DNA of 64,000 nucleotides, taken from contig OZ316775.1 of assembly GCA_973851085.1 (NCBI GenBank), forward strand, positions 4,960,001 to 5,024,000, given 5' to 3'. Both the position numbers and the translations under genes were made by a program. Below the pieces are notes generated by a model. It did no database searches. It saw only the letters and a list, made by a program, of their open reading frames with translations, and was not told the origin of the DNA. Below, piece by piece: positions 8,682-53,036 of the stretch. Every line of letters starts with the position of its first letter. Position 1 is the first letter of the stretch. The DNA comes from Ptychomitrium polyphyllum. Its lineage: Eukaryota.

Positions 8682-10401
8682 ATGGCTGCAGGAGAGATGG
8701 GCTCACTGGACGAAGTCCTCTATGCTATGCTTTCAAATGACCATGGCCCGTACTCGTCTTTGGCCAGTGTGATGACATCGTCCAATTCGCCTTGCACAGA
8801 ACCGGGCGACCTGAATGCGTCGCAATACTCTTCGTCGCAGGGGAGCTTTGAGGGGTCAGGTCATAGCTTACGCAGGTCAGGGCTGGATAGGTCAAGTGTA
8901 TTCTCGTACTCAAATGCCGCAATGCCGCAGTGGTCGTTTTTCAGGGACGAGAAGTGGGTTCTGGATGCCAAGAAGAAGGCGTTGGAAGTGTCCAGTGTTT
9001 TGGCAAGTAGCCATGGCACGAATTTCAGGTCGAATGTTGACGCCTCTCCGCGCAACCTTAACCCGCCTCCTCCCAGTGGGCTGCAAAGGTACCATTCTGC
9101 TCCGAGCAGTTTCCTGCAATGTTTGGCCGATTTCAGCGAGGATGCGTTCTCGCAAGTCTCCGAGAGTCCAGTAGGAGACAGCGACGGCGGCCTGCTCAAC
9201 TCCTTTGTAGAGAACCTGTCGCCCATTAATGAACGCGGTTCACAGCAAACGGACACGGAGAAGGTCGACGTGAGTTTCAGCTTGAATGATTACGAGCAAT
9301 TTCTTGCTACGCAGAATGACATCGGAAGAAGCTCTCCCTCAACGCAGCCTAGGACAACTGAGCCGCGGCCTCTGACGCGCCAAGATCATGGCCATAGCGG
9401 ATACTGCACACCAGGTCAGTCGCTTACTTTTTATATACATTCACCTTGTGAATCTCCTGAAAACTCTTGTCTTTATCGTCAAGTCTGAAAAATCGATGTT
9501 TGCAACTCTCTGAATTGGACATACATGACTTGTATGTTATAGATTCGTTGGGTGTTCGGTCACGACCCACGAGGAGTAAAATCCTACGACAGAGCAGCAC
9601 ACCTGCGAACTTTCTGGCAGCCGTGCAGGACAACCTGGAGGAGAGTAGTCCAATATGCAAGATGCGGAGCTTCTTGTCTCCAGATGAAAGTATGACCGGC
9701 GCAAACTCTGAGGAGAATGCTAGTGGTAATGCTCTATGTCCATTCCCATGTTGTCGCGTCAATCGTCATATATCTCGTCAATGAACATGTAGTGTCTGGA
9801 AGCCTCTGGAGCTCTCCAACACAGTTCTCGTGGTCATAAACATTTGCACTTCACTTGCCTACTCTTTACTTGTATTGCTTTCCTGATGAGTTACTATCTT
9901 GGTTGTGTGGACTCATTCACAACAATATGTTCTACATCAGCAGGGGAGTTAGGCCATGGCAACAGCCTTCTTGGTGCGGGGGAGATGGCAAATGATCCTT
10001 CAGGGTGGCTTGGAAACAGCTCACTCAGAGTGCGAGTCGGTGAGCCAGGATCAAACCTGGGCTTGGTTCGACATTCTAGTCTGCCTGCAGCAAGTCGCCC
10101 CTTCAGCCCCACCATGGAACTGGACGACTTGGCCGAGCTCTCGGGCACAGTGCCGTGCAAGACGAGAGCCGGCCGCGGATTCGCCACCCATCCTCGCAGC
10201 ATCGCCGAGCGAGTGCGGCGCACGAAAATCAGTGAGCGAATGAAGAAGCTACAGGTCCTTGTTCCCAACATGGACCGGCAGACCAACACGGCTGACATGC
10301 TCGATGAAGCTGTGGAGTATGTGAAGCAGCTGCAGCTGCAAGTGCAAGAGCTGTCCCACACCGTGGCCCAGTTGAAGCAAAGCTTGGTACGTTGTAACTG
10401 A
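8682..10401 (+). CDS. bHLH transcription factor, FBH/AKS (subfamily IX)-like
   Basis: Exons are 8682-9414, 9543-9725 and 9941(or 9944)-10401. The domain reads [54 protein letters not shown]. Upstream motifs [20 protein letters not shown] and LVRHSSLPA are typical of FBH/AKS proteins. A short final intron (10387-10443, stop at 10449) is an alternative ending. Confidence 0.9.
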
Positions 10402-12089: not shown

Positions 12090-12615
12090 ATGGTGCTTCG
12101 CCACATGCACCCCACCGCTCGCTCAAGCCCATCTCATCCTCCATCGCCATCGCCATCACCGCAATCCCTTCCCTTCACTACCTTCGTGGACTCGCTACCA
12201 CTACCATCATCTCCTCACTTTCTCCCGCTCTCCGGCCTCCAATTCACGAATCTCCTCTCACCGTCCTTATTCTTAGTTTCGCAGACAGAGATCGTTGTGG
12301 CAAACTGACAGACGCTGGAGAAGGTTGCATGGAAAGTAAGCAGCTGATGTATTCGTAAGGCGATTATTCTCTTGGTTTTGGTCTTGCTGTTGCTTCTTGT
12401 GATGGAGATTAGTTTGCATGAAGGTTTAGTAGGATTTAGTAGGGTTTAGTAGGGTTAGCAGGGCGTGGCAGGGGCTGTGGTAGGGCGGGCAGTGTGTAGT
12501 ATGATAGTATGAGCACAATTGGAGGTGTGAGATGGATGCATCAAGAGTGGGAGAGCAAAATGGGAGTTGAGAGTGGAGAGGATTTTGAGCGTGAAGGCGT
12601 TGGAAGAGGTTGGAT

Positions 12616-14736
12616 ATGGCGTTTGGGGGGCAAGTGGCGGGGCCAGCCGGGTGTTATCAGGTGCGCGGGGTGCTCAGGTTGTCGATACCGCTCGCGCGGT
12701 GCGCTTATCAGCCAAAGCGAAGTTTTGTGTCGCCGATGAAGCCGCCGGGATGCAGATCGTTTTTGCTCTTGAGGCTGCTGCCGCAGTTTGACAGTCTGGT
12801 GCTGCAGAGAGGGAGAGATTCGGTTTTGCGTTACGACTCCCGTGGGGACCGAACGTTTTGTAAGACTTCTTTCCGCAATGTGATGACTGTAGCGGCTGCA
12901 GCGGAAGTGCCTGCGGTCGTGAAGCCGGTGGAGGAGCAGCTCGTCAAGAAGGGTATATTATTGCACTCGTATAGCCCTGGTACGGTGCGAGGGATTTGCC
13001 CGGAGTGTAAGGGCGGTTCCTCAGGAGAACATTCCTTGGCGGTGACTATTCCAGATGAAGAAGGACAACCGGCAATTTGGATGTGTCATAGAGCTACTTG
13101 TGGATGGAAAGGCCGTACATGGAAGGGTTCTTTGGCTTCGTCATTGGTGCAAACGGGGAATAGAGCTTACAAAGTTGGAAAGATCGTTAGACGTCCAGTA
13201 GTCAAGAAAGAGCACACATCAGAGAGTCTTAGGCTTGAGGCAGTGCAGCCTCAAGTTTTGAGTTATTTCAAGAACAGGGGTTTGTCTGAAGCGACGATTC
13301 TCGAAAACAACGTGGCACAACATCGTATAAACGCCACAGACCTCGCAATCGCGTTTCCTTATGTGCAGGATGGGAAGATTCTGAATTGCAAGTACCGGGA
13401 TGCCAAAAAGCGGTTTTGGCAGGTGAAGGATTCAGCGAAGGTGCTGTATGGATTGGATCACATCAAGGGCAATCGGGAGATCGTGATCGTGGAGGGGGAG
13501 TTTGATAAGCTGGCTATGTATGAGGCAGGCATTGTTAATTGTGTCAGTGTCCCTGATGGCGCTCCGGCTCAAGTCTCTGGAGCCGAACTCCCCCCTCCGA
13601 GAGAGGACAAGAAGTATGAGTACCTTTGGAACTGCAAAGAATATTTCAAGGATGCAACACGAATCATCTTGGCCACCGATTCTGACGAGCCCGGGCAAGC
13701 ATTGGCTGAGGAGCTTGCTCGCAGACTTGGACGAGAGCGTTGCTGGAGGATCACGTGGCCTGAAGATGAGAATGGGAAACAGTGCAAAGATGCTAATGAG
13801 GTACTTATGTCTTTCGGATCAGAAGGTGTGAAGGACCTTATAAGGAATGCAGAACTGTACCCAATTCGAGGACTATTTGACTTCCGGCAGTTTTTTAGAG
13901 AAATTGATGATTACTACTATCTTCGTCTTGGTGATGAGCGAGGTGTCTCTACTGGCTGGCGTGGTCTTGATGAAATTTACAGGGTTGTGCCTGGTGAGCT
14001 CACTGTCGTTACAGGAGTTCCAAACTCTGGTAAGAGTGAGTGGATCGACGCACTTATTTGTAACCTGAACAGGAGCAAGAAGTGGACGTTTGGTCTCTGC
14101 TCAATGGAAAATAAGGTACGTGAGCATGCTAGGAAGCTGATAGAGAAGCACATCCACCAACCATTTTTTGATGCGCCGTATTCAAGATCCACACCACGTA
14201 TGAGCAAAGAAGAGCTGGAAAGGGGCAAGAAATGGTTGCAAGATACTTTTTTTCTCATCAGACACGACGACGAGGAGCTTCCTTCGGTGGATTGGGTGCT
14301 GAATCTTGCGAAGGCGGCTGTGATGAGGCATGGAATTCGTGGGCTTGTTATTGATCCTTATAACGAGCTTGATCATCAGCGACCTGGGAATCAAACTGAA
14401 ACGGAGTATGTTAGTCAAATGCTTACAAAGATCAAGCGGTTTGCCCAGCACCATGATTGTCATGTCTGGTTTGTTGCACACCCGAGACAATTGCAAGTAT
14501 GGAGAGGTGAAGCACCTGGTCTGTACGATATTAGTGGCAGTGCTCATTTCATCAACAAGTGTGACAATGGCATTGTCATTCACCGCAACCGAGATGAAAA
14601 CATGGGGCCTCTTGACCAAGTGAAAGTGCTTGTGAGAAAAGTTCGTAACAAGGCGGCTGGAACCATAGGTGAAGCCACCTTACGATACAACAGAGTAACT
14701 GGAGATTATGAGGATGTCAGGGAGCCTTTGGTTTAG
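12616..14736 (+). CDS. TWINKLE: Organellar Twinkle DNA primase-helicase (T7 gp4-like), single coding exon
   Basis: Uninterrupted ORF with first ATG at 12616. It has an Arg/Ser/Leu-rich transit-peptide-like N-terminus, a Zn finger (CPECKGG...WMCHRATCGW), TOPRIM motifs (IVIVEGEFDKLAM, ILATDSDEPG, KDANEVL), and SF4 helicase Walker A GVPNSGKS, Walker B LVIDPYN, FVAHP and ISGSAHF. Confidence 0.95.
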   Translation: MAFGGQVAGPAGCYQVRGVLRLSIPLARCAYQPKRSFVSPMKPPGCRSFLLLRLLPQFDSLVLQRGRDSVLRYDSRGDRTFCKTSFRNVMTVAAAAEVPAVVKPVEEQLVKKGILLHSYSPGTVRGICPECKGGSSGEHSLAVTIPDEEGQPAIWMCHRATCGWKGRTWKGSLASSLVQTGNRAYKVGKIVRRPVVKKEHTSESLRLEAVQPQVLSYFKNRGLSEATILENNVAQHRINATDLAIAFPYVQDGKILNCKYRDAKKRFWQVKDSAKVLYGLDHIKGNREIVIVEGEFDKLAMYEAGIVNCVSVPDGAPAQVSGAELPPPREDKKYEYLWNCKEYFKDATRIILATDSDEPGQALAEELARRLGRERCWRITWPEDENGKQCKDANEVLMSFGSEGVKDLIRNAELYPIRGLFDFRQFFREIDDYYYLRLGDERGVSTGWRGLDEIYRVVPGELTVVTGVPNSGKSEWIDALICNLNRSKKWTFGLCSMENKVREHARKLIEKHIHQPFFDAPYSRSTPRMSKEELERGKKWLQDTFFLIRHDDEELPSVDWVLNLAKAAVMRHGIRGLVIDPYNELDHQRPGNQTETEYVSQMLTKIKRFAQHHDCHVWFVAHPRQLQVWRGEAPGLYDISGSAHFINKCDNGIVIHRNRDENMGPLDQVKVLVRKVRNKAAGTIGEATLRYNRVTGDYEDVREPLV

Positions 14737-20076: not shown

Positions 20077-23000
20077 ATGAAGTGGGGATCTTCACAACAG
20101 ACAGAGGAGGCGACGGCAGCGATGGAGGCCGGCGAGGATGTGCGAGAGCGGAGCAGGCTGATGGACCTCATCGACGAGGCGACCGTCTCGCCCGCGAAGA
20201 GCCTGGACGTGGGGTTGCTGCACGCCGTGAAGGCTCTGGTGCGCTCCTCCGACGCCAACGTGCACACTGCCTTTGACACCTTGTTCGACAAGCTCAAGAA
20301 GAATCACTCGCAGGTCAGCACTGCTTCACCAAATCTAAGCTCAAGTCTCTTTCCTCCTGAAGGTTAAGTTACTCCTCTATTGCGTTGGACGACGGGAAGA
20401 TGAACTGCCGTGGTGTCTGGGCGTATTGGTGTAGTGTGAATTGATTCAGGGTTGGAAGTGGATGGCGGTGAAGTTCATTTCTACCAGTGGTTCTTTTGTA
20501 ACATAAACGTGTGTGGAGACTGAACGTTTTTGTGTAAGGAGTTGATGTGATTTAGGAAGGGTTTGTAAAGTTGTTGAATCTAATGGACTGTCAAAGGATT
20601 GGTCTATTGCTATTAGGGTTTCTTTTTGTGGAGATTGACGAGGCCTCGTTGGCGATGTTGCCTTGCTTGACAAGAGGAGGTCGTCTCGATTTTGAGAAGT
20701 TTGAAGTCAAGAGAGGTTATTCAATTGTGGGAGGTTTTATGTAGCTGGGAAGGGTTGATACATTCTTCTGTTCACATTTTAAGTTGGTAAAATTAGGGTC
20801 GAGGTGATTTGTACTTATTTATTTCAACGGTAGTTAACATGCAAAGGACTGGATAATGCACTGCACTCTCCCAGAATTGCAGTTTTGGAAAGCCCGGTAT
20901 GAAACCACTCTTCTTTTTCCTGCAGCGAATGAATATTTTTTCTTTTGACAGGTGCGTTTCCTCGCAGTTCTTCTTATTGATGAGCTATTCATGCGGTCGA
21001 AGCTGTTCCGGTCGCTGCTTGTTCCGAAATTCGAGATGTTCATACTTCTCACTATTGGATACAGAGGTGATTACCCACTTCCAAAGCCGCCTGATCGAGC
21101 TACCTTGCTGAGAACCACAAGCATGGAGCTTGTGGAGAAGTGGAACGATTCCTTTGGTGTGCACTACAAGCAAGTTCGTTTGGGGTATGAGTATTTGAAA
21201 AAGACCCTTAGGTTGCAGTTTCCCAATCTTAGGGCAGCAGCTGCACTGGCGGAACAGCAGCGACAGGAAAAAGAAGCGAGAACACAGGTATGATTCAGCC
21301 CTTGGGTGTATTTTCTAATTTATTAGAGTGTCAGCTATTTCTCTGTGTCTTTGAGAGGAAATTTGGAGAATATGATCATGCTGGAGTGACACCGTTCCCA
21401 GACATATTATCGTTCATTTTAGTTCAGGAATAAGGGTTTGAGTGATTATGCAGACGTGTGGTACTGACGGAATGCGATAAAGTTATGTCCACTTTTCTAA
21501 ACTTGAGTATCTGCGAATTCATGTTATACAGGCACTGATCCAGAAGAAGTACGAGAGCTTATGCCAAGACTTTTCTGAGTTGAGAGGTGAAATTCAAGCG
21601 ACCCTGAATGAAATAGTTGAATGCTGCAAGATACTTGAGCCAGAGATTGTATCTGCACCAGAAGGGAACGAACCTGTATCTGGGGCAGGTCTGGAGAGTC
21701 CTGTATTTGGAGACGATGACGATTATGAAGAATACGGTGATTCCAGTCTCAGGCGGCAACTTCATGAAGAGGTTTCGGAAGAGGTCTCTGTTTCTGAGAA
21801 GCCGGTATGTGTTGACATTTTTTTATAGACTTTTAGCATTGGCTTTGATGTGGATTTGGTGTGATGGGAGGACGTCCTGTCATGTATCATTTGTAGTGTA
21901 GTCGCTAGACGCAGAAGTTGGCTGATCTTGAGCTTGGCTTTGCTTTGAGATCGACATTAGCATCTTTTGGTGCGAAATGCGTCTCAGATTTAACTATAGT
22001 GTACCTGATTGATGCAGAAAGAGACTACTGATAATTCAGCAGTGTTTGAAACTCTCCGGGACCTTTACAAGTTGGTGTCTTTGAATCACCTTAGAACCAC
22101 CCAGGAGTGGCTATCGATTTTGATGAGGGTGGATGCTTCGGATACACGGCGTCGTGATGCATGTCTGAAAGAGGTGATTGACTTGCGCACACAGCTGTTG
22201 GGTTCCCTCGGCAAGTGCGAAAACTTAGGCATTGACCGCACAGAAAGAGCTTCAACAAGTAGAACTTCAGTTGATAAAGTTGATGATGAGGATATCATCT
22301 GGGAGGCAGGAGATGTAGAGACGGATAAAGACCCGGTTGACACTGCAAGTACATCACATCGTGTCAATACTGAAAAAGGTGAGGCCTTTTACTTACTGAA
22401 GCTCTTGGGTAAGTGGCATAGCTGATGTGACTCGGTAAGAGCGGTTCTGTTGTTTTGACTTACAGCTTTTCATTTGGTTATACTCGGAGGCTTTCTCTGT
22501 TTGCTTGACTCTATATGTATATTCTTCACATATATGTTATCGAGTCGTCCAAGAATGGTGTGTGTAGGTGAATCTGGAAGTAGTCGAACAGGGAACAATG
22601 TTCACCAAGTACTTTGGACCATTATATTCAGCCGTTTTAAAATTCTGAAGTGTGTTCTGGCCTGTGCAGATTCAAAAACGTCTGCTTCAAGAAATGAGGA
22701 CCCAGCCAGTTCATCTGTAGTTACTCGCTCCGAAGTAAACACGAAAACAGTGGACACGGGTCCAAGAGCGGAGTTGTTAGGAGAGGCCCCAGTTCTCCCT
22801 TACGGTTCATTCTTGGACAATTGGGGTTCAAAGAGTGACGTTCCTGCCAATCAGCGAGGCTTAGAGATGGAGAATCACTGGGGTAGGTTTGATAGTGAGG
22901 CAATGATTCCAGTTGAGAGAATTGCGGAAATGAATGTTCGTTCTTCTTTTTATAAGCCTCCTGAAAGAGAAATTATTCCATGTCGAGCACCATTAAAAAA

Positions 23001-23619
23001 AGGAGGACTTTGCCTGCGACGGGACCTACATCGGTGCCCGCTTCACGGACCCATCATCCTACGCGATGAAAACGGCCACCCCGTGCAAACACCAGAAATT
23101 GATATAGCTGAATCCAAACTAGAAGAGAAGGAGCCTGTGGAGTTCCCGGAGGTCAGTGCGGGAGGCTTTCATCCTGCTTCAAGTTCATCAATGGGTGCAC
23201 CTTCACCCCTGATTTCTGAGGCCGAGTTGGCTATGCAAGCGATTGTTAACGTGCGAGAGAGGGATGAATTTGAGGCAAGGAAGAGAAGAGACGAAAAGGT
23301 CACGGCCAAGCGAAAACAATCCAAGAGAGACAGAGAGCACAATGATACAGTTCTGAGAGCAGCCGCATTGTCACAAAGTCATCAAGGATTTCAGAATTTA
23401 TTCGATGAACAGTTTGACGATGATGTAAAAACGAGGGGAGGAAAGAAAAAGACACGAGGTGGATTGACTGCATTGCTGAAGAAGACTCCCACTGCTAAGG
23501 AACGAATTGCTCAAAGACTGCTCAACAGCCGAGTGCGTGAAAATACAGTAAATGAGCTTGCTAGGATAGAAGAGTCCAGACACCGGGATGCTTCTGCCAA
23601 TCAGTGGAGTTTGAAGTGA
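20077..23619 (+). CDS. UVSSA: UV-stimulated scaffold protein A homologue (transcription-coupled repair)
   Basis: Exons 20077-20313, 20952-21287, 21532-21804, 22018-22378 and 22670-23619. N-terminal VHS-like domain (KLKKNHSQVRFLAVLLIDELFMRSKLFR, PLPKP, LVEKWNDSFG..YKQVRLGYEYLK), DUF2043-type region (ENHWG) and Zn finger CRAPLKKGGLCLRRDLHRCPLHGPIILRD. Confidence 0.9.
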
Positions 23620-31800: not shown

Positions 31801-33975
31801 GAATCTTCATCAATTCCACTCCTGTGCCCATTAAAAGCAGGAACAGGAACAGGCTCCGCAGGAACAGGAACGTCAATGCCAGGCGTATCATGTTGCCTGG
31901 TCGTTGGTGCAGAAAGAGATTCTTGTGCTCCTGCAATAATTACAAAATAGATCAAGAGCTGTAATCTATGTAGGAGGAAAAAAACATGTCTCTACAAACA
32001 ACTCACAGAGTACAAAACTATCCCAACATCCAGGATCTAAACAAATTACCAACAGAACCCAATCATCAATGATCGATCGAAAATGGGTCAATATTTAAAA
32101 AATCGCTATAAACTGCACACCTAAATGCTAACAGTCGTCTGAGGATCCTATATGATACCTAGCTACCTTCTGACAAGTTCAAATAGTGAATCTAGACCAA
32201 CATGAAAAAGAAAGAATAAATGGAAATTTATTATGACGTCGGAACAGTGGATACAAGACCCACTTTGTAGGTCTCGGTAAAATTAGCGTTACCATCGGAC
32301 TTAGATTCAGAACCATCAACCACCCCAGCAGAAAGAATCTGTGTGGTGTCCGTTGTATCAGATTGTTCAACAGGAGAAGAAACCTCCTTCGAAACCTGCA
32401 AGATAACACTTTGCTCCACTTCTGCCTGAACTTTATTTTCAACTGCGGAGGTCTCTTCGCCGTTCACCCTCCCCTCACCTAGAAACAGAGAAGATTAAAC
32501 AACAAAACCATCAATGTACAGTAAAGCAGATCCTGCTTTAAAGCTGAGCCTCTCAAAGAAGAACAATACTCAGTAATACAAACTAGAAACTTCTCTTTAA
32601 ACATTCTGCAATATTCTTTTATTACTAGGAAAACTTAGCCTGAAGGCTTAGATACACAAATCACCGACATGTGCACAAGAAAGAAATTGGATCAACCCAA
32701 GTGCAAGATGATGAACGAAAACACAAGACTAATGCAAGGTCATAGGGGTACACAAAAACTTTATGCATACCAATGATAAGGCTGGCTTTGTCATTTTCAC
32801 CAGCTGGAGTGGTAGCATCTTCTCCAGATTCTTGCACCTTCCTACGGCGCCTATTATTATGGCGTTGTAGCTTAAATCGACAGCTCCGTTTGTCCTCATC
32901 GAAATCACCCAACGCGTGGAACCTGTTTGATCGATTATTGTGTGAGAGATGTTTATAATAACAACACAAGAGGTGATTATTACCCCCATCAAGACATAGA
33001 ACTGTACATTGCAAAGCACTTTAACTTAAAGACAGATCATAAAGCATTGTAATACTCAGAATATATACTACAGCTCCAACTTTAAAAATAAAAAGCTACT
33101 GACAAGGCTTGCATTCCACATCAGTCCCAGCTGCCTCAAATCAAAGAATTAAAAAACTTCATTATTAAATCACAACCAATGAATCGCAATGATAATCATG
33201 GTCTCTGTGATTGACCGGGAACGATTTCACATGATTCCGTTCGTCAAAGAAGAGAAGACTCAAAATATACTGCACAAGTCCTTTGCTTAGTTGGATTCCG
33301 CAATGACAGATGCCTCCTAGCAAGCTCAATTCAAGAGCAGTTATGTTGAACATCAGATGTAATGGTTCTATACTAAACTTTGACCTGTAAATTTCCTCAC
33401 TCAAGATACCACCAGCAAAGCTTGGATTCAAACGAACATCATACTTACTTGCCACACTGTTGACAATATCGATGGGCGATGTCACGCAAAATCACTGTAG
33501 TCGAATTTGCACATTGTAAACAAACCCGGTGCCGCTGATGATAACCCTTAAGTCGAGCCAAATCAGCTCCACAAGCAGGAACTTGACAACGGGCGGACAT
33601 CTTAGCCCTCTTGCTCCGGCTTCCTCCCTCGTCATCATCCTCATCGGTACACGCACAAGGAACTCTCCCAGCAAGAAAATTCGGGCAATCAAGCCGCGGG
33701 TCTCGAAATAGTTCATAATCTGAGTTCGTTGTCTTCTCAATTGACGAGCTCGATTGCGGCCCAGCAGCTGCTTTCCCATCCGAAAGGCTCGGAGAGTTTG
33801 TCTGGAGACTTTCCAACCCGGTCCATGACTGCCCTACGTCAAAATTTGTCCCATGCTCAAGACTGGAGTGCTCCTGAAGCGAGGATTGCAAAGGAGTCGT
33901 GTCAAACGCAGGGTTCGCCAGAAGGAGCACACTATCCCATTCCCAACCTGCCACGGAATCACCCAAATGTCCCAT
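28841..33975 (-). CDS. SPL7: SBP-box transcription factor, SPL7/CRR1-type (copper homeostasis clade) with a C-terminal transmembrane anchor, ~11 exons
   Basis: Exons ~33975-33449, 32922-32771, 32478-32264, 31930-31671, 31473-31399, 31173-31066, 30887-30764, 30555-30411, 30192-30057, 29789-29364 and 29089-28841. It has the RDPRLDCPNFLAGRVPCAC motif and an SBP domain whose first Zn site is C4 (CQVPAC...HRVCLQC), followed by YCQQCGKFH..DFDEDKRSCRFKLQRHNNRRRR. Further on come TGRISFKLYDWNPGDFPR, LEGYIRSGCTILT and a TM segment (FAVVSATAACAGLCVILQHP). Confidence 0.9.
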
Positions 33976-34573
33976 GTCTTCGCAGCCGCATAGAGACCTT
34001 CCACCCGACTGTCCTAAAACCAAACCCTCTCTCGAACCTCGCGTGCACCTAAACTACCAAACTACCGCTAACCACTCGAACATCAAATTCCCACCATCAC
34101 TAAAACCAGGGGACAAACAGTATCCACACAGCATCTACTCCAGCACACGACCACCGCCCCTTCAAAACGGAGACGAAACACCGGCCGACACCAAATACAG
34201 ATACGCCACATCACCGCAACAGATTCCAACACAATCCCAGAACCAAATTCGACCAAAACCCAAGCCTATGCCAGATTCCCCAGAATTCTCGCAGACAACA
34301 ATCTACTAACAGAGCTGACGCTTCAGTCAAAAACACCAAACTACGCCACGAAATCCCCGAAACGCCCGAAGTGCGCGAAGCGCCCGAATTCCATCACGAA
34401 CTCCACCGCGAACACAACTCCAGAGCAAACCCTAGGCAAGATTCCGAAGAAATGCAGGGAATCTCCACGGAAACATATGACAAATGACGCATTGGAAGCG
34501 GCAGACGGCGGACGGTGAGAGCGACGCGAGACAGCGAAGGGCCGGGGGAGCTAGTAAGGCCCGGAAGCGTCCG

Positions 34574-41660: not shown

Positions 41661-44600
41661 ATGGCGGCCAACGCCCCCATCGCCATGAAGGAGGCGTTAA
41701 CGGTACGTCCGGGTGCTTTCGGGGTCGTGTGGGGGTTGGGAGATTCGCTCCTTGTGCCTGTGTGATGGGATGGTTTTCTTGGTGCAGAGTGTGTTTTGGG
41801 ATGTCTGGGGTCTTTTGTTCGGAGGTTTTGGAGTTTGTGTGGTGGAGGGTGGGATCTGGGGATCGGTTGGTGGGTCGAGAATTTGGGGTTTGGAGTTTGG
41901 AGGTGAGGTGGTGTGGGAGGAGGTGTTGAGATGGAGTGCTATGTGGAATCTGTGAGCCGGGTGGGGGGGGTGGGGTTCATGGTTGAGTCGTGGGCAATTT
42001 GGGGTGGTGGCGGTGGAGTGGGGTCTCGCTGAGCTCGTTCTGGTGTGACAATGTAGCTGACGAGCTTGGGCATAAACCAACAATTCGTGACGTTCACCCA
42101 TGTGACGATGGAATCCGACAAGTTCATTTGCGTGCGCGAGACTTCACCTCAGAACAGCGTTGTCATCATCGACATGTCAATGCCCAACCAGCCTCTACGG
42201 CGGCCTATTACAGCTGACTCCGCGCTCATGAATCCCACCAGCAGGGTTCTTGCCCTAAAAGGTGCGTTAACCTCATGCATGAGCTCTGGATCCAAGAGTT
42301 TGCTGCTTTGCGCCGAGCGGGGGACTCACCGTGCCGCTTTGTAATTGGGGCACACGTTGCGCTCCACTGAATCGGAGGCTGATCGCTTTACTGTGTACTC
42401 TCTTAAGAAGTGGTTGAGGGTTCTCAAGATTTCGTTTCAGTGATTATTCTCCTAGTAATTCATCTTCTTGGCTCTTGATAAATCAAATAGTACCGCTAGT
42501 GAAAAGTCAATTGGGGTTCCGAAGCTCTCATCACGTTCACTCAAGAGGACAGATTATCTTTTGCGTAAGGGAAATAGCATCTAACCTGAACGGCGTTAGT
42601 CAATCTACAAGGTGATTGAATAGTTGGAAGAGTTGGATGCTGCCATTTCTTGAGAAACGGCCTGTATTTGCTCGTGGTCGTGCTCCCTGTCTTTTTGTCA
42701 GAGAATTGCAGGGGTCATGTCATGCGATCAGGAACCTTTGCGTGAAAGTCACATTAGAGAAACGATTTAAAGCTGAATTAATAAGCTCGGAGTTTAAGGT
42801 TGTGATCTTATTTTCCGCCGTTTCGAAGACCAGGCCGCACTAACTGTACTCGATTTTTGCTTGAACCTGTGGCTTGTCTTCGCTGGTTATAAATATCGTT
42901 CTCGCCGTCGTATTGGTTGCATTTTGCTTTTATTAATTGTACAGTGTGCCGAGGGCTGATGTTTTATGTTGGTGTTCTTTTCATTGTTTAGCTCAAATGC
43001 CTGGGACTACACAAGATCATTTGCAAATTTTTAACATTGAGTTAAAGGCGAAAATAAAGTCTTATCAGATGCCAGAACAGGTATGAAAGATATGGGCACC
43101 CGTCAATTTGTTTAACAGTTTGTGCATGATAACAGTCTTGTAATACAGTTATTTTTCGGGGTCAGATTTTGCACTCCTTTTGTGGTACTTTTTAAATCCT
43201 ACTTCCTGACTACTTCGTACAGGTGGTATTTTGGAAGTGGATCACTCCAAAGTTACTCGGGCTCGTCACACAATCATCAGTATATCACTGGTCCATAGAA
43301 GGTATAAACATTATCATTCATAAGCTCCGACTCTCCTTTTATTGAGGTTGTTAGTGTTGTGTTTTTTGATCTAGAGATTTTACAACCTATGGTGTTCTAG
43401 TACAAGCTTTAAATCGGTTCTCTAAAACTTCGTTGTTATTGGTATAGGTGAAAGTGAACCATTGAAGATGTTTGAGAGAACTGCAAATTTGACTGGCAAC
43501 CAGATCATTAATTACCGGTGTGATCCTTCTGAAAAGTGGCTCGTATTGATTGGGATTGCGCCTGGGGCTCCTGAGGTACGTTAGACCTAAGAACATGATT
43601 TTGATCAACGATTCGTTTTCTGTAGCTCCCTTACCATACAATATCCATCTGGCAGTTAGCACAACTTTGTGTTTCATGTTTAAGAGACTTGTATTTGGTA
43701 ACGTGCACCTAGTCACTAAAAACTTTCATGACTGGGGCATAGTAAGTCAAATACCGTAATAGTTGAAACGGACATATGATATTGAAGCGACACACAGGTG
43801 CTTCAGATCAGACACCAAGGACTCGACAGTCTATACAATCTGTGACCTCATGCTACTTGAATATTCATCCGAAACAATAACTTTGAATGTGGAAAGGTTT
43901 TTGCCCTTGCATTTGTGCCGTCCGCCCCGCTTATATCATTGACATTGCATGGAATACAGTTTGAAAAGCAATCAACAGTTCTTTCTCACTATGTGATGTG
44001 ATTTGCAGCGCCCACAGCTTGTGAAAGGAAACATGCAGCTGTTTTCCGTGGATCAGCAGAGAAGTCAAGCGTTAGAAGCGCACGCAGCATCATTTGCATC
44101 TTTCAAGGTAAAATGGTCATTTCTTGGACGTAGATCTCTTACGTTGATGTGGTTTGAAGAAGCGCGTGAAATGGCAATTATATCTTTTACATGCTGCTGG
44201 ATCTGCAGTTGTGACTTTTTGAGGTGCTTCTTGAGTGATCCAGGTTTCAGGCCATGAAAAATCCTCTCTTCTTATTGCATTCGCAACAAAGTCTTTGGTT
44301 GGCGGTCAGCTGGTTTCAAAAATGCATGTTATTGAGCTGGGGGCTCAGCCAGGTCTGTGTCTACTTTTCTTGACTCAAATGAGAGTGACTTAACCATTTG
44401 ATGAAATCAGGTGCCAGGAAACGATTCATCAAGTCTCTTGATTGCATTCTCAACAAAAACCATTAGTGCTGGACAGCTTACATCCAAGCTGCATATCATT
44501 GAGCTTGGTGCCCAACCAGGTTGGTCAGACCTGGAATGATCCTACTTATCCACAATTCAATGTTTAGTTTCCTGTACATCCTCGCTTCCATGTTTTCGGA

Positions 44601-47600
44601 GCTTCAGAGAAGATTCGCATGAGATCCACTGAAGCAAAGTGGAGTTCGACTACTACGACCTGTCTTCCTGCTGTCTCTTGACGCAAAGAGGCTGGTGCTA
44701 TTTTCATAGCAATTTGATGTTTCTACGATACGAGGTTTACTATTCCTGACACATTGTTTACACTTGGTTTTCAGGGAGACCTGGGTTTGCAAAGAAGGCG
44801 GCAGATTTGTTCTTTCCTCCGGACTTTGCAGATGATTTTCCAGTTGCAATGCAGGTGGGTCCTCTCATGTAGCGCCAATTGAATGGATATTACTTTAGGG
44901 AATGTATTGTGCTAGATATGTACACGTGTACTTTGCCGCTTCTCCTTTGTTTTATCTTTCTCTGCATCACAATCCTTGAAGCATTTAGAAGTTCCAATTT
45001 ATCTGAACTTGAATATGTTTTAGCTTGGTACTCAGAATGGTTCAGCTTAGCATGTTTGCCTCCATTCCCGGACTGATCCGTTGAATTCCTTGGGTTTTGC
45101 AGATTTCATCCAAATATAATCTTATTTACGTCATTACAAAGCTGGGTCTTCTTTTTGTCTACGATCTGGAAACTGCTACAGCTGTGTATAGGAATCGTAT
45201 CAGCCCAGATCCAATTTTTTTGACAGCTGATGCACCAACAGTTGGTGGGTTTTATGCGGTCAATCGTCGCGGACAAGTTTTACTGGCGGCTGTTAATGAG
45301 GCAACAATTGTCCCATTCGTTAGTAACCAGGTGAACTCTTTGTTCACAGATTATTGATTGATGGCACTTATGTTAAAGTACACCCAGTGGATTGACCTTC
45401 TATTTCAGGTTTGGTGGTGGTCATTTTTTTCCTCTAGAACGTGGCATCCTCTGACCTGATCATATCCTACTGTAATCGGCAGCTAAATAATTTGGAGCTT
45501 GCAGTGAATCTTGCAAGGCGAGGAAATTTGCCTGGAGCAGAAGGCTTGGTATGTTATTTCTTGCAACCTGTTGGAGTTGATGTTGGAGTTGGCATACATA
45601 TGGAGCAGCTTGTTTAGGCCTGTTTGTGTCCGGTGGACTTCTATATGTTGCTAGATCTACTTTCCCTGATATTACGTGTGACATCGGTTCGTCGTCTGTG
45701 CGGGCTAGTAACATCTATTTCTGATCTCTTTAGCAGTCAATTCATGTGATATCTTATATTGACGAAAACGAGGGTTTATTGTTGAATACAGGTTGTGCAA
45801 CGTTTCCAAGAGTTGTTCTCGCAGATGAAATACAAGGAAGCAGCTGACCTTGCAGCTGAATCACCTCAAGGGATTCTTCGAACTCCAGATACCGTGGCTA
45901 AATTTCAGGTTTGTCACCCATTTTCATTGTATTTTTGTTTAATTTCCACAAATTCTATGATTTTATTGCTGTGGTTTCTTGTATTTCTTTCAAGTGACTA
46001 GTACAGCAAATGGATTTCAACCTAGTGTTAATACCTCGGTCTTGTTCCTGATTTAACTTCTGGAAAATAAAATTTTCTATTTTCCTACTGCAGAGCGTTC
46101 CAGTGCAGCCGGGACAGACTTCACCGCTTCTACAGTACTTTGGGACATTGCTGACTAAGGGAAAACTAAATATGTTTGAGTCTTTAGAGCTATCTCGTTT
46201 GGTTGTAAATCAAAACAAGAAGAATTTGCTCGAAAACTGGTTGGCGGAGGACAAGCTCGAGTGTAGTGAAGATCTAGGAGATCTTGTAAAGGTGTCTTAT
46301 TATGACTGTTGACTGGTCTATGATCTACTATCAGTTAAAAATAGTTAACTATGAAAGGGTATTATGTTCTGAGTCAAGTTTATTGCCTCTTATATCGACC
46401 TGCACGACTATTGTTTTGGAAAGACTGCAGGATTAAGATGTAACTGGTTTGGTTGCAAGTTAGTTTCAGCCAGTATGAACATGGAATAATAAGGCTATCT
46501 TCTGTTTTATTCTGTTGGTTGTCATCGTCTGGGCCATCTGGCTTGGCTAATATACTGTAAGCATGCTTTATGTCTCTGCAGACTGTGGACAATGATATGG
46601 CTTTGAAAATCTACATTAAGGCCAGAGCTACTCCCAAAGTGGTTGCCGCTTTTGCTGAGCGGCGTGAGTTTGACAAGATACTCATATACTCCAAGCAGGT
46701 TATTTCAACACAAGATTTTTGAACTCTTAACATCCTTAACCGACTGTTTCCTGGAATGCTTGAGTTCAACAGTTCTTCTCTACTTTTTTGTATCGGGGCC
46801 AACTTGTCGGTGTACTATATACACATGCAGACATAGATGCCTGGAAGATTATTTACACAGTGTCGCCTACACTGCAGGTCGGTTATACTCCAGATTATCT
46901 GTTCCTGCTGCAGACAATCTTGCGATCAGATCCTCAGGTATATTTGAGTTTCCTGCATTATCTTTATAAACAGTATATGAAGGGTTACATTCCTTGTATG
47001 ATGTAATCTATATGTCTCTCTTAGTTCTAATGTTGTCTATTTTATTTGTGGATGCAGGGTGCTGTGAACTTTGCTCTTATGATGTCTCAGCTGGAAGGAG
47101 GGTGCCCAGTAGACTACAATGTCATTACTGACTTGTTCCTTCAGGTATGAATTAACGCTGGTCCATGTTCGGTATTGAATACACCTTTTTTGGAGTACTA
47201 AAATCTTCATTGCCTTCTGGTTATTCTATCTTCTGATATCTTTGTGGTTGTTATGCAGCGCAACATGATCAGGGAGGCAACTGCGTTTCTTTTGGATGTT
47301 CTTAAGCCTAATCTGCCAGAGCATGCTTTGCTTCAAACCAAGGTCTGGTTTAGCCTTCTGCATGCCTTGCTTTCGGATAAATATGTACTCATGGCATTGA
47401 ATCTCAACATCCTCTTTGGCTCCCTTGGTTTGTTTTGACAAGTCCCACTTATTTGTTTGTTTATTTATTCCATCTGTCTTCAACGCTCTTACTTCTGGTT
47501 TACTGGAGTTTGTGCCCTTTCTCATATAGTTTTCCTTTAGAGCTTTTACCGTTGTTGGGTTTGTCAATTTTCACTCAGGATAGGTATTTCTATAGATTTG

Positions 47601-50600
47601 TATTTATTTAATTCGCTTCTTGACATGTTCTGGTTTCCTTTTCAGGTGCTGGAGATCAACCTGGTCACCTTTCCTAACGTGGCTGACGCGATTCTGGCAA
47701 ACGGCATGTTCAGCCATTATGATCGTCCTCGCATTGCTCAGCTTTGTGAGAAAGCTGGTCTTTACATGCGTGCTCTTCAGCACTACACAGAGTTGAATGA
47801 TATCAAGCGTGTTGTGATCAACACTCATGCTATTGAGCCCCAGGTATTTCACTTAGCTTATTTCTACGGCTTCCTTTTGTAGCTCTTTGTTGCGTTCCTT
47901 TCTGTGGTTTGTTGCAAGTCTGAGTTGAAGTTCTTTATGCAGCCTCAAAGTGCTGAACTAAGACGCGGCTTGTGCTCGTCTTTATGTTTCTGCAGGCCCT
48001 AGTAGAATTTTTTGGAACCTTGTCAAAGGAGTGGGCTTTAGATTGCATGAAGGAGTTGCTCCAAGTCAACATGCGAGGCAATCTACAAATCATTGTGCAG
48101 GTGCGTGTCGTGAATTAGCAGTTCGTTTGTAGTCTTAAAATTCATTGATTTTTATTGTTGTGGAGGTCCTTTCTAGCTTTCTTTAATAGTCAAGTAATAT
48201 TATACTCATTTAAGAATGCTGGGGTCAGTCTACTTCAATATTGCAAACTTTACAGTTAGCCCACAATTGCACCTGTATACAGGTTGCAAAGGAGTACGGG
48301 GAACAGCTGGGCATCGATGCATGTGTTAAGTTATTTGAGACCTTCAAGTCATATGAAGGACTTTACTTCTTCCTTGGTGCATACCTAAGTACAAAGTGAG
48401 TTCCTTCTGTTGGTTTTGATCTTGAGAATTGTGGAAGGCAAGACAATGATTGAGATGGGTGATCTTGGGATGCCTCAATGTATTGGATGCCTGAAATTTC
48501 GGGATACCAGTTACTTATGTATGCCTTCGTTTCGTACAAGTAAAATCCTTCTGAATTGTCGATTGTTGTATTCAGTGAGGATCCTGAGATCCACTATAAG
48601 TACATTGAAGCCGCAGCCAAGACTGGTCAAATCAAAGAAGTGGAGCGTGTCACAAGAGAGTCAAACTTCTATCCTCCTGAGAGGACCAAAAATTTCTTGA
48701 TGGAAGCAAAGTTGCCAGATGCAAGGCCTCTGATTAATGTTTGTGATCGACATGGCTATGTGCCTGATCTTACTCATTATCTCTATGCCAACAACATGCT
48801 TCGGTATATTGAGGGATATGTGCAAAAGGTAATTTGTAATTCATTGATCAGAGGTTCTCTACGATTGCTACAGTATCCATGAAGTGCATACTGCCCACTG
48901 GATTCAAATTTACTCAATCTTGGGCTCCTTGATATCTTTCTGACATCTGCGTATCATGCAGGTCAATCCTCAAAACGCACCTTTGGTGGTTGGGCAGCTG
49001 CTGGATGATGATTGCCCTGAGGATTTTATCAAGGGCCTAATCTTGTCTGTCCGGTCATTGCTTCCAGTGGAGCCTCTGGTTGACGAGTGTGAGAAGAGGT
49101 AATTTGAATGTTTATCGTTGAGTTCTAATCAGCCATATAGCTGGTTCTACATTGCTTTTTCATTTACAAACTGCATTGTATTCTGTTCACCAGTGCTCCA
49201 CGGACACTATTATCATATTAGAAGAGTTTTGAATGTGGATTTTACAGAAGTTCAATATTGAGAATGCTGACATGTTGAGTTCATTACTAACGAGTTGTGA
49301 CTTTTGACAGAAATCGTCTCCGGCTGTTGACACAATTCTTAGAGCATCTCGTGAGTGAAGGAAGTCAAGATGTGCATGTGCACAACGCTCTTGGAAAGAT
49401 CATTATTGATACAAATAACAACCCTGAGCATTTCCTTACAACAAATCCTTACTATGACTCTAAAGTTGTTGGTAAGTATTGTGAGAAGCGTGACCCCACG
49501 CTTGCAGTTGTTGCCTATAGACGAGGCCAATGTGACGATGAGCTCGTCAACGTGACCAACAAGAACTCTCTGTTTAAGCTCCAGGCCAGGTGAGGCTCTT
49601 CCCTATTTCTATATCACTTCAAGAAATTCAGCGAATATTGTCAGACATGATTCGTCTTGAAGCTTGGGTTCCGCAGTCAAATTTTCTTTTTCTTATAAAA
49701 GATTCTTGCCTGGTCAGTCCTATTATTTCTACACTTGTCTCCACTTCCTTTTCTTTTATAGTTGGCTGGACTCTAAGTTCCTTTGGTACTTGGTATGACC
49801 AGGTATGTGGTCGAGCGAATGGAACCAGACCTGTGGTTGAAGGTTCTCGACCCAGAAAATCCTTGCAGAAGACAGCTGATTGATCAGGTCGTGTCTACTG
49901 CTCTGCCAGAGAGTAAAAACCCAGAGCAGGTGTCAGCCACTGTTAAGGCATTCATGACCGCAGATTTGCCTCATGAGTTGATTGAGCTTCTAGAGAAAAT
50001 TGTTCTGCAGAACTCTGCCTTCAGTGGCAATCCGAATCTTCAGAATCTGCTCATTCTTACCGCAATCAAGGCTGACACAACAAGGGTTATGGATTATATC
50101 CACCGATTGGATAATTTTGATGGTCCGGCAGTGGGAGAAATTGCTGTCGGTGCTGAACTTTATGAGGAAGCATTTGCAATCTTCAAGAAGTTCAATCTGA
50201 ATGTCCAAGCCGTTAATGTTCTCCTAGACAACATGCGCAGCATTGATCGTGCTGTGGAGTTTGCAGCTCGAGTGGAAGAAGATGAGGTCTGGAGCCAAGT
50301 GGGTAAGGCACAGTTGAGGGAAGGCCTGGTCAGCGATGCTATTGAGTCTTTCATCAAGGCAAATGATGCCTCTCAATACAACGAGGTTATTGACGTAGCA
50401 TCTGGTGTAAGGGCATACGAGGATCTAGTGAGATACTTGAACATGGTACGCAAGAAGGTGAAGGAGGCGAAGGTGGATTCTGAGTTGATCTTTGCGTATG
50501 CCAAGCTGAACCGCTTAGATGACATTGAGGAGTTTATTGTCACTCCCAACCTTGCAAACTTGCAAACTGTTGGAGATCGTCTATTTGATGAGGCTTTGTA

Positions 50601-53036
50601 TGAAGCTGCTAAAATAATTTTCACTCACATTTCCAACTGGGCCAGACTTGCCAGTACTCTTGTTAAGCTTCACCAGTTTCAAGCAGCTGTGGATGCAGCT
50701 AGGAAGGCCAACAGCGCACGGACATGGAAGGAAGTCTGTTTTGCTTGCGTGGATGCTGAGGAGTTCCGCCTGGCACAAATTTGTGGTCTCAATGTCATTG
50801 TCCAGGTATGCAATTAACTCCTTGAAGTTTAATTCGATACTGAATTGTTTTTAATGAGTAGGCTCTTTATGTTTAACAACTATAGTAATGTGCAAATCTC
50901 AATAGTACGAATTTGGCGTTTTAAACTTGAAATTTGTGCAAAGATGTGCAGTGGCTGGTCTTAGCTGGGAAAGCAACTCTAAATCCCTGAACATGATTGT
51001 GTATAATCTTTGTAGGTTGATGATTTGGAAGAGGTCAGTGAATACTACCAGAACAGGGGTCGCTTTGACGAGCTCATCTCACTCATGGAAAGTGGACTCG
51101 GTTTGGAGCGTGCTCACATGGGTATCTTTACAGAACTTGGTACTTTGTATGCCAAGTACCGTCCAGAGAAGCTTATGGAGCATCTCAAGCTTTTTGCCAC
51201 CCGTATCAACATTCCAAGACTTATCCGTGTGTGCGACGAGCAACAGCACTGGAAGGAACTTACGTACTTGTATATTCAGTATGATGAGTTCGACAATGCT
51301 GCTGCTACTATGATGAGCCATTCTCCAGAAGCTTGGGATCATATGCAGTTCAAGGATGTGGCCGTCAAGGTCGCCAATGTGGAACTGTACTACAAGGCTG
51401 CTCATTTCTATCTGCAAGAGCATCCAGAACTCATCAATGATTTCCTTAATGTTCTTTCTGCTCGTGTAGATCACACGAGAGTGGTGGATATCATGCGGAA
51501 GGTAAGTTAGTCGTATAGAGAGAATTGCCACTTAAGTGTTGCTCATTCTCCGTAAATGCTCTCTCATTGAATATTATTTTTATGGTTGTTGATTTAGCTG
51601 AATTCCTTATGACTCTTAATATACTTAATTGGAGATTGATATATAATTGTCATTTCTTATATGTGCTTCTACGTCACATCTGCAGGCTGGACAATTACCA
51701 CTGGTGAAGCCATATATGGTGGCTGTTCAGAGTGCTAACAATGCTGCAGTGAATGAGGCTCTAAACGGGCTTTACATTGAGGATGAGGATTATGATCGGC
51801 TCAGGGAGTCCATTGATATGTATGATAACTTTGACCAGATTTCAATGGCACAACGGGTAACAACTTCATCCTTTCTCCAAGCGTGCGTGATCATGTTACC
51901 ATGCATATTACAATGCTCACTAAATTGGAATCGTGGCGATAACTTTTCTGTCGTTGATTTTATCAGCTGTGCTCTTGATGTTTGATGGTTCCAAAATATA
52001 TGCTGAATATATGTATTTTATTCATTCTCGTCAGATTGAGAAGCACGAGCTTCTGGAAATGCGAAGGGTTGCAGCGTACATCTACAAGAGGGCTGGGAGA
52101 TGGAAACAGTCTGTGGCTCTTTCGAAGAAGGATAACTTGTACAAGGATGCCATGGAGACTTGCTCACAGTCAGGGGATCGTGATCTTGCTGAGGAGTTGC
52201 TCACTTTTTTTGTGGACAAGGTAACTCATCAACTTTACTTTGTATGTTTATTTGTCCATGGCTTTAGTTTGTTAATGTATACATTCGGCCTCGTCCTGAT
52301 CGTTGGCATTCGGTGTTTTTTCTAATACTGGTTTGTATATTTGGATCGTTGCTTTTGACGCAGGGCAAAAAAGAATGCTTTGCTGCATGCTTATATACCT
52401 GCTATGATCTCATTCGTGCCGACATCGCCGTTGAGCTGGCCTGGATGCATGGCATGATGGATTTTGTCGTACCCTACTTATTACAGGTCTGTACTTTTTG
52501 ACCTTCTTAAATGCCACTTGCTTATTTTGTCTACTTAAATTTCATTTGCTCATCAATAAATGCTACTCTGAAAATATTTATGAAATCCTTAAATTGCGGT
52601 TACTCATTAATATTATCTCTTGTAGTTCATGCGCGAGTACACAACAAAGGTTGATGAGCTTATCAAGGATAAACTGGAAGCAACTGAAGAAAAGAAGTCC
52701 AAGGAATCTGAGGAGAAGGATGTTGTCGCTCAACAGGTATAATTTCTATCTATCAGAATATCAATTCTGATGTTTGTTTATTTTGGTCAGCCATGAGATG
52801 CCTTTGCCATCAAACTGTCACCAAAAAATGGTTGGAGTAACACAGCCTGTATAATTTTTGTGAAAGCTTTAGCTGATGTTTTCATATCTCTGCAGAATAT
52901 GTATGCCCAGCTTTTGCCTTTGGCTCTACCTGCCCCACCTGTTGCCGGCATGGCTGCTATGCCTGGCATGGGTGCAGGTATGCCTTACGGGGGAATGCCA
53001 GGAGGATACGGCATGCCCTCCATGAGTTCGTTCTAA
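41661..53036 (+). CDS. CHC: Clathrin heavy chain (about 30 exons), with a duplicated exon 7
   Basis: [14 protein letters not shown] (41661-41702) | [29 protein letters not shown] (42057-42261) | 42992-43080 | 43223-43301 | 43448-43575 | 44009-44107 | exon 7a/7b | 44775-... The CHCR-repeat exons include [18 protein letters not shown] and the ~1-kb exon from 49803 ([11 protein letters not shown]...). The last exon reads [15 protein letters not shown]...[10 protein letters not shown], with TAA at 53034-53036. Confidence 0.97.
44244..44352 (+). other. CHC: Clathrin heavy chain alternative exon 7a (109 nt)
   Basis: CCAG|GTTTCA...[49 protein letters not shown](G); phase 0 in, phase 1 out. Confidence 0.8.
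44411..44519 (+). other. CHC: Clathrin heavy chain alternative exon 7b (109 nt)
   Basis: ATCAG|GTGCCA...[49 protein letters not shown](G); phase 0 in, phase 1 out. Confidence 0.9.

What the first reader, a model, noticed from the sequence alone, without database searches (positions are those of the whole stretch)
44244..44519. Tandem duplicated, apparently mutually exclusive exons in the clathrin heavy chain terminal domain
Seen in sequence: between constitutive exons 44009-44107 (...AASFASFK) and 44775- (GRPGFAKK...) lie two homologous exons of exactly 109 nt. Each has AG/GT borders and the same phases (0 in, 1 out). Exon 7a encodes [36 protein letters not shown] and 7b encodes [36 protein letters not shown] (about residues 215-250). 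24 of 36 residues are identical, yet 15 of those 24 use different codons, with no indels or stops, which suggests an old duplication with both copies under purifying selection. Including both exons shifts the frame to a TAG at 44464-44466, skipping both also frameshifts, and retaining the spacer hits a TAA. Only one-or-the-other inclusion gives full-length clathrin. Established knowledge: this segment is part of the N-terminal beta-propeller that binds adaptors (the KLHIIE strand contributes to the blade 4/5 arrestin-box groove in mammalian CHC), and mutually exclusive exons are rare in plants. Inference: one gene makes two clathrin isoforms with different adaptor-binding surfaces. I am not aware of this being described.
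Basis: partly seen in the sequence, partly recalled or inferred. Interest (0 to 1): 0.92.

Follow-up and report, generated by a model that had tools for sequence, protein, structure and literature searches.

The report
Either-or exons in moss clathrin
A moss gene for clathrin, the protein that coats transport vesicles, carries two old copies of one exon that related mosses splice in one at a time, so one gene yields two clathrin versions that likely differ at the edge of a partner-binding groove.

Summary
RNA contigs of related mosses show both spliced forms: exon 6>7a>8 and 6>7b>8. No 7a>7b join appears in 8 runs. Physcomitrium patens RefSeq already lists both proteins as automatic isoforms X1 and X3, differing only in this segment. 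The pair is old: orthologous 7a copies share fixed residues, and a paralogous locus also has it. It is absent from 59 complete genomic loci of other plants and algae. The spacer is 39-58 nt wherever readable, against 114 nt or more for this gene's other introns. So steric exclusion, backed by nonsense-mediated decay, is the likely mechanism. A conserved element after 7b may bias the choice by base pairing (predicted only). The differences lie in a loop and at the tip of a plant-extended hairpin. 7a is the minor, faster-drifting copy and is degenerate in one paralog lineage. No paper describing this was found. New member of a known kind, rare in plants.

The parts
41661..53036 (+). Clathrin heavy chain gene, 29 coding exons per isoform, 1697 aa
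   Evidence: open frame; 97.6% identical to Ceratodon purpureus CHC, 93% to P. patens, 90.6% to Sphagnum
44009..44107 (+). Constitutive exon 6 (99 nt, ends in phase 0)
44192..44243 (+). Conserved intronic block before the 7a acceptor (branch-point region; a 7-bp hairpin 44197-44203 with 44237-44243 could cover the AG, weakly predicted)
   Evidence: Relatives align here but not further upstream: X1 44187-44241 with 3 differences, X14 44192-44261 with 4; hairpin probability 0-0.22
44244..44352 (+). Exon 7a, alternative and likely minor, residues 215-250
   Evidence: X11; X14, X16; P. patens X1
44353..44410 (+). 58-nt spacer, likely too short to splice; first about 21 nt conserved; branch-point-like A at +21, +41 and +49
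   Evidence: read-through peptides of unnamed loci keep the first 7-8 codons
44411..44519 (+). Exon 7b, alternative and likely major, residues 215-250
   Evidence: P. patens X3, Ceratodon model
44520..44542 (+). Conserved intronic element after the 7b donor; 44526-44534 is the exact complement of the 7a donor 44349-44357 and also pairs with the 7a acceptor and the 7b donor (predicted selector)
   Evidence: Alignments of X1, X11, X14, X16 and the X18 paralog all run to 44540-44542; duplex energies
44775..44854 (+). Constitutive exon 8 (starts in phase 1)

Best explanation
Exon 7 of this moss clathrin heavy chain gene exists as two tandem copies, and related mosses splice in either 7a or 7b, likely never both because the 39-58-nt spacer is too short to be spliced out, giving two full-length clathrins predicted to differ at the rim, not the core, of the blade 4/5 adaptor groove. 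Shown: the anatomy, both open frames, both spliced forms in relatives, conservation. Inferred: any branch point in the spacer lies under 50 nt from the 7a donor, so the two sites cannot be engaged together; double inclusion, double skipping and retention all give early stops that decay would clear. Predicted only: the conserved element after 7b masks a 7a splice site and helps make 7b the default. Inferred: 7a puts Val at 234 and 239 on the groove-side face of a plant-extended hairpin and Lys at 221 in a loop, which would tune adaptor affinity rather than create a new site.
For: Spliced 7a: X11 holds one 163-nt contig with the exon-6 end, 7a and a 44349>44772 GT..AG joint (depth 33.9), beside a 7b contig (72.3). 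X14 (17.2 vs 75.8) and X16 (354 vs 1789) show 44105>44242 joints. 7a spliced in 3 of 7 RNA-like runs, 7b in 7 of 7, 7a>7b in 0 of 8 runs. P. patens XP_024386288.1 (X1) and XP_024386291.1 (X3), both 1710 aa, differ at 15 positions, all in 217-252; an older model (P0139) holds both copies in the order a, b. 7a copies group apart from 7b copies (1 change on the tree in 100% of 200 bootstrap trees, weak branch 79/88), with K221/S221 and V239/T239 fixed in 8 vs 4 copies. Spacers 58, 57, 55, 53 and 39 nt, about 51 nt in the X18 paralog (offsets); shortest of 28 other introns 114 nt. The 50-nt threshold is from PMC7969005 and PMC5740500 (passages). Hairpin strands 223-234 and 237-247 in an AlphaFold2 model of a lycophyte CHC with the same numbering.
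Against: No RNA of the window's own species was found; all RNA evidence is from relatives at mostly 90-99% identity, as contigs, which cannot show absence or true levels. In X1, X2 and X7 no spliced 7a was listed; 7a appears only inside an unspliced piece running into 7b (depth 44, 42, 53), and X17 shows no clear 7a. The five listed 7a differences to organism A are all amino-acid changes (they match P0173). P0194/P0246 carry a 7a with H243Y, E246G and Q250L, and the listed changes in the X18 paralog's 7a include one that gives H243Y. The 50-nt limit comes from animal studies; plant branch points were not mapped. Nearly every 7a- and 7b-type residue also occurs in single-copy exons of other plants, so the two forms may be close to equivalent. 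No protein-level evidence.
Confidence: 0.78

Rival explanations
1. The cassette mainly sets clathrin dosage: 7a and its conserved flanks slow or block splicing of the exon 6-7b intron, making a retained pool that is held or decayed; the 7a protein is a tolerated by-product.
For: Unspliced intron+7a+spacer contigs at depth 42-53 in X1, X2, X7, against 4-8 for other intron-containing contigs in X1 and X7; also in X14 and X16. Intronic blocks more conserved than nearby synonymous sites. P. patens X2 (1466 aa) lacks everything before exon 8. 7a drifts faster.
Against: 7a keeps an open 36-codon frame and all fold-invariant residues in 8 of 8 copies, with fixed 7a-specific residues from P. patens to the window; cleanly spliced 7a in 3 runs.
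Confidence: 0.2
2. Both exons are used but are functionally equivalent; the duplicate persists because steric exclusion makes it harmless and its inclusion keeps it under ordinary purifying selection.
For: Pocket residues identical; substitutions lie largely within the range of single-copy plant exons; 7a degenerate in one paralog lineage; vascular plants and algae manage with one copy.
Against: Retention across Physcomitrium, the window's lineage and paralogs with a-specific and b-specific residues kept distinct; conserved intronic elements on both sides.
Confidence: 0.3
3. 7a is a dead pseudo-exon or an assembly artefact.
For: No spliced 7a in 4 of 7 RNA-like runs; no RNA from the window's own species; three private changes in the window's 7a against the other copies (H219, S222, S232).
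Against: Spliced in X11, X14, X16; RefSeq X1; intact in 8 copies; one-piece DNA contig.
Confidence: 0.04

Closest known systems
Homologous mutually exclusive exon pairs enforced by steric hindrance (alpha-tropomyosin exons 2/3, OGDH 4a/4b; PMC7969005 passages, PMC5740500 passages)
   Same: Two duplicated exons, same length and phase, branch-point candidates under 50 nt from the upstream donor, length not divisible by three so decay backs up exclusion.
   Different: Here the whole spacer is 39-58 nt, rather than a longer intron with a distant branch point; plant gene; branch point not mapped.
Competing RNA structure (docking site/selector) MXEs such as Dscam, 14-3-3zeta, Ate1, and the duplicated-hairpin-arm model (PMC6071210, part 1 of 5 read)
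   Same: One conserved element downstream of the cluster is complementary to duplicated sequences at each exon, as expected if one arm of a hairpin was duplicated with the exon.
   Different: The partners are the splice sites themselves, so pairing would mask rather than activate; helices are only 7-9 bp; no covariation shown.
Physcomitrium patens RefSeq clathrin heavy chain 2 isoforms X1 and X3 (XP_024386288.1, XP_024386291.1)
   Same: The same event in another moss: a-type and b-type segment, rest identical.
   Different: Automatic annotation only; no paper found. 7a differs from the window's at 9 of 36 residues, 7b at 4 of 36.
Plant CHC paralogs (Arabidopsis CHC1/CHC2; PMC13176895 passages)
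   Same: More than one heavy chain in a cell, with unclear division of labour.
   Different: Variation comes from separate genes; 59 of 59 complete genomic loci from other plants and algae have one exon 7.

Membership tests
Homologous mutually exclusive exons | Neighbouring exons of similar length, same phases, homologous sequence | tested here: met
   109/109 nt, phase 0/1, 71 of 109 nt identical
Homologous mutually exclusive exons | Each exon is found spliced between the flanking constitutive exons | tested here: met
   In relatives: X11 contig with 6>7a>8 and contigs with 6>7b>8; X14, X16 6>7a joints; RefSeq X1/X3. Not tested in the window's species.
Homologous mutually exclusive exons | The two are not joined to each other in mature RNA | tested here: inconclusive
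   0 of 8 runs list a 7a>7b joint, but contigs drop rare forms and decay would deplete them
Steric-hindrance MXE | Donor to branch point under about 50 nt | tested here: met
   All three candidates at +21, +41, +49; spacers 39-58 nt in five loci. By sequence only; lariats not mapped.
NMD-backed MXE | Double inclusion and double skipping create early stops | tested here: met
   Stops at codons 269 and 281 of about 1700
U2/U12 incompatibility MXE | One flanking intron is minor-spliceosome type | tested here: not met
   Donors after exon 6, 7a and 7b do not resemble the U12 donor consensus (recalled)
Competing RNA structure MXE | Conserved element complementary to sites at both exons | tested here: met
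   Conserved block to 44540-44542 in 5 runs; 9-bp helix with the 7a donor is the best of 812 donor/downstream pairs, local 7b hairpin the strongest of 29 donors
Competing RNA structure MXE | Compensatory base changes or mutational proof | not testable with these tools
   No relative's genomic letters could be fetched. The P0194 peptide after 7b keeps the core codons but changes the one before, with no matching change at its 7a donor, which speaks against the full 9-bp helix there.
Isoform pair with distinct adaptor site | Residues lining a known adaptor pocket differ | tested here: not met
   I226, F228, H243, I245, L247 identical in all 12 copies

The most novel reading that the evidence does not exclude
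Mosses switch the adaptor preference of clathrin by splicing: a base-pairing element after 7b competes among the splice sites of the two exons, and the 7a form presents a more hydrophobic rim (Val234, Val239) on the arrestin-groove face, so regulated 7a use builds coats with different adaptor selectivity. This would be a plant example of RNA-structure-guided mutually exclusive splicing and a spliced specificity switch in a clathrin terminal domain.
Probability: 0.2. Interest if true: 0.82.

Novelty: new member of a known kind. Interest (0 to 1): 0.62.

Why it matters
Homologous internal mutually exclusive exons are scarcely documented in plants: Kassiopeia predicted 99 internal candidates in Arabidopsis, none already annotated (PMC3923563, passages). 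This one is conserved across mosses and sits in a core trafficking protein. A 2026 review of plant endocytosis calls the consequence of multiple clathrin isoforms in one cell unclear, and names P. patens as the system for gene targeting (PMC13176895, passages). Single-exon knock-ins would test isoform function at one locus with expression held constant. The 39-58-nt spacer and its conserved flanks also give a compact test of splice-site spacing limits and RNA structure in plant splicing.

Tried and rejected
No whole genome is held for the window, so paralogs could be seen only as read alignments. The metagenome scan gave 86 loci: 3 not clathrin, 14 spliced transcripts, 69 genomic, of which 10 lack exon 6 or 8 and were dropped; none looked like a moss and none had two copies, so no DNA alignment or covariation test of the intronic elements was possible. 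Global folding of 44180-44560 is not unusual (z +0.94, 82 of 100 shuffles fold as well). Partition-function results depend on the window: the element pairs with the 7a acceptor (0.58-1.0) or the 7a donor (1.0 in a short window); the partner is unresolved, and it also pairs fairly well with unrelated donors (-15.7 vs -17.5 kcal/mol). The hairpin over the 7a acceptor is weak in context (0-0.22). U12 incompatibility rejected. The +41 branch candidate is disrupted in organism A; the +21 candidate fits most read-through peptides but not P0176. Coupling of K221 with M242 across plants was checked by eye and rejected (many K221 with L242). X17 record 18 and the X16 44097>44325 joint could be paralog 7b ends and were not counted as 7a. 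My first gene model had off-by-one boundaries and was replaced; one search used a wrong exon-9 start, so only one search counts for downstream frames. The 36-column tree has no starred branch and cannot say which copy is ancestral. No complex prediction was run. Searches of earlier findings returned nothing.

Full report
1. Observation. Every detail tested holds. Exons 7a (44244-44352) and 7b (44411-44519) are 109 nt each, AG/GT-bordered, 58 nt apart, 71 of 109 nt and 24 of 36 residues identical, 15 of the 24 by different codons; NG86 pS 0.69, pN 0.24. In a 29-exon model either exon alone gives a 1697-aa open frame; both exons, neither, the retained spacer and the whole retained intron stop at codons 269, 281, 264 and 264. 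The next best match to 7b in the window is 49 of 109 (mean 27.7, sd 4.6), and no other of the 29 exons has a second copy. The protein is 97.6% identical to Ceratodon purpureus CHC, 93% to P. patens and 90.6% to Sphagnum, so the window is from a moss (inferred).

2. Both exons are used. No RNA run of this species turned up; 17 of 19 listed runs held small shares. I laid 8 of the 19, seven RNA-like and one DNA-like, all as contigs. X11 has a 163-nt contig with the end of exon 6, all of 7a and a GT..AG joint to exon 8 (depth 33.9) beside the 7b form (72.3). X14 has a 6>7a joint (17.2 vs 75.8 for 7b; its 7a>8 side is inferred from the same 163-nt length) and the mixed sample X16 too (354 vs 1789). 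Contig depth is a poor measure, so 'minor form' is rough. X1, X2 and X7 show spliced 7b and an unspliced piece from 44192 through 7a and the spacer into 7b (depth 44, 42, 53), but no spliced 7a; X17 shows 6>7b>8 and no clear 7a. No run lists a 7a>7b joint. Independently, P. patens RefSeq isoforms X1 and X3 are both 1710 aa and differ at 15 positions, all within 217-252: X1 is a-type, X3 b-type; an older model strings both together, a before b.

3. Age and range. Short ORFs from unnamed contigs read through 7a into the spacer and sometimes on into 7b. With the window and P. patens they give 8 a-type and 4 b-type copies (P0174, P0242, P0243, P0245, P0246 and the partial 7a of P0194 were left out as near-copies, late additions or fragments). 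In P. patens numbering (window +1), K221/S221 and V239/T239 are fixed, and 229, 234 and 242 have no overlap between the groups; mean differences are 5.5 within a, 3.5 within b, 11.1 between; the a copies form one side of a weakly supported branch. The DNA-like run X18 holds, at equal depth, a second locus at 83-90% exon identity with both exons and a spacer near 51 nt, probably a paralog. Of 86 metagenome loci, 59 are genomic with exon 6 to exon 8 complete; all 59 have one exon 7 with the same borders; they are redundant and none looked like a moss. Six Sphagnum-named proteins and the liverwort, lycophyte and algal proteins show one type each, but their DNA was not examined, so the upper age limit is open. 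The split between Physcomitrium and Ceratodon-like mosses is roughly 200 million years or more (recalled).

4. How exclusion likely works. The spacer is 58 nt here and 57, 55, 53 and 39 nt in four other loci; the shortest of the 28 introns of the 7b model is 114 nt. Branch-point-like adenines lie at +21, +41 and +49 (pattern recalled). All are under the roughly 50-nt donor-to-branch limit cited for animal MXEs (PMC7969005 and PMC5740500, passages). The +21 site fits the read-through peptides of most loci but not P0176. Early stops back this up. This step is inferred; no lariat was mapped.

5. What may bias the choice. Three intronic blocks are conserved while neighbouring intron is not alignable: 44192-44243, the first 14-21 nt after 7a, and 44520-44542. 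Bases 44526-44534 are the exact complement of the 7a donor, and they also pair with the 7a acceptor and the 7b donor. The 7a-donor helix is the best of 812 donor/downstream pairs and the local 7b hairpin the strongest of 29 donors (-10.6 vs -7.7). That layout fits the duplicated-hairpin-arm model (PMC6071210, first fifth read). Against: the region does not fold better than shuffles, the preferred partner changes with the window, the element also pairs with unrelated donors, and the one paralog peptide available shows no compensatory change. I give the structural switch about one chance in three.

6. What the two proteins change. The exon matches mammalian residues 206-236 plus a four-residue plant insertion. 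An AlphaFold2 model of a lycophyte CHC fragment with the same numbering (42-row alignment, mean pLDDT 87.7; not the moss protein itself) shows a loop 215-222 and a hairpin of strands 223-234 and 237-247. The arrestin-box residues F216, F218, H229, I231 and V233 (PMC5182127, passages) map to 226, 228, 243, 245, 247 and are invariant in all 12 copies and nearly all 87 other plant segments. By strand alternation (my inference, no coordinates), 234 and 239 continue that same face toward the hairpin tip, where 7a has Val/Val and 7b Ser or Thr/Thr; 229 and 242 face the other way as a cross-strand pair; 221 is in the loop. So the pocket is shared and the rim differs. In yeast, small differences between boxes give adaptor preference (PMC11543927, passages), and MXE-specific residues tend to lie near functional sites (PMC7954323, abstract), which makes tuning plausible but unshown. 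Against it: 7a drifts faster, is degenerate in one paralog lineage, and its residues mostly occur in other plants' single exons.

7. Novelty. Eight searches of the held library (listings and abstract starts only, unless named) found no paper on this event. The 2026 plant endocytosis review has no passage on moss CHC splicing under the terms searched, and Kassiopeia does not cover mosses. Subscription papers and all supplements were unseen; moss splicing tables could list it. The event is already present as automatic RefSeq isoforms. PMC11464654 (passages) added nothing.

8. Verdict. A real, conserved mutually exclusive exon pair (about 0.95 that it is real in mosses; 0.78 for the full account with steric exclusion). 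New member of a known kind, unusual for plants and for clathrin, and directly testable in P. patens. Interest 0.62.

Noticed in passing
window 44624-44674: A second conserved island inside the 7b-exon 8 intron (aligns in X1 and X14); 44662-44670 is predicted to pair with the exon 8 acceptor 44772-44780 (9 bp, -12.9 kcal/mol).
   Followed up: partly
window 44777-44784: The start of exon 8 shares an 8-mer with the element after 7b, so it can pair with the same three splice sites (strongest helix, 12 bp with the 7a acceptor); probably codon-driven (Arg-Pro-Gly).
   Followed up: partly
window 44108-44410: Unspliced intron+7a+spacer is abundant in three RNA runs (depth 42-53 against 4-8 for other intron-containing contigs): a possible detained intron.
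   Followed up: partly
P0134 (P. patens isoform X2): RefSeq also lists a 1466-aa form that starts just before exon 8 with a short foreign N-terminus; its splice origin could not be resolved without DNA.
   Followed up: no
P0194/P0246 and X18 record 23: A paralog lineage with a degenerate 7a; in P0194 the 53-nt spacer is open and in frame, so 7a, spacer and 7b read as one ORF.
   Followed up: partly
window 12595-14736 +: A 713-codon uninterrupted ORF with Toprim and DnaB_C domains (Twinkle-like primase-helicase). Land-plant Twinkle genes are intron-rich as I recall, so this may be a retrocopy.
   Followed up: no
window 4990-34053: Ordinary neighbours by Pfam: LURP-one-related 4990-5724, bHLH 9793-10401, DUF2043 22459-23619, SBP-box 33445-34053 (-).
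   Followed up: no
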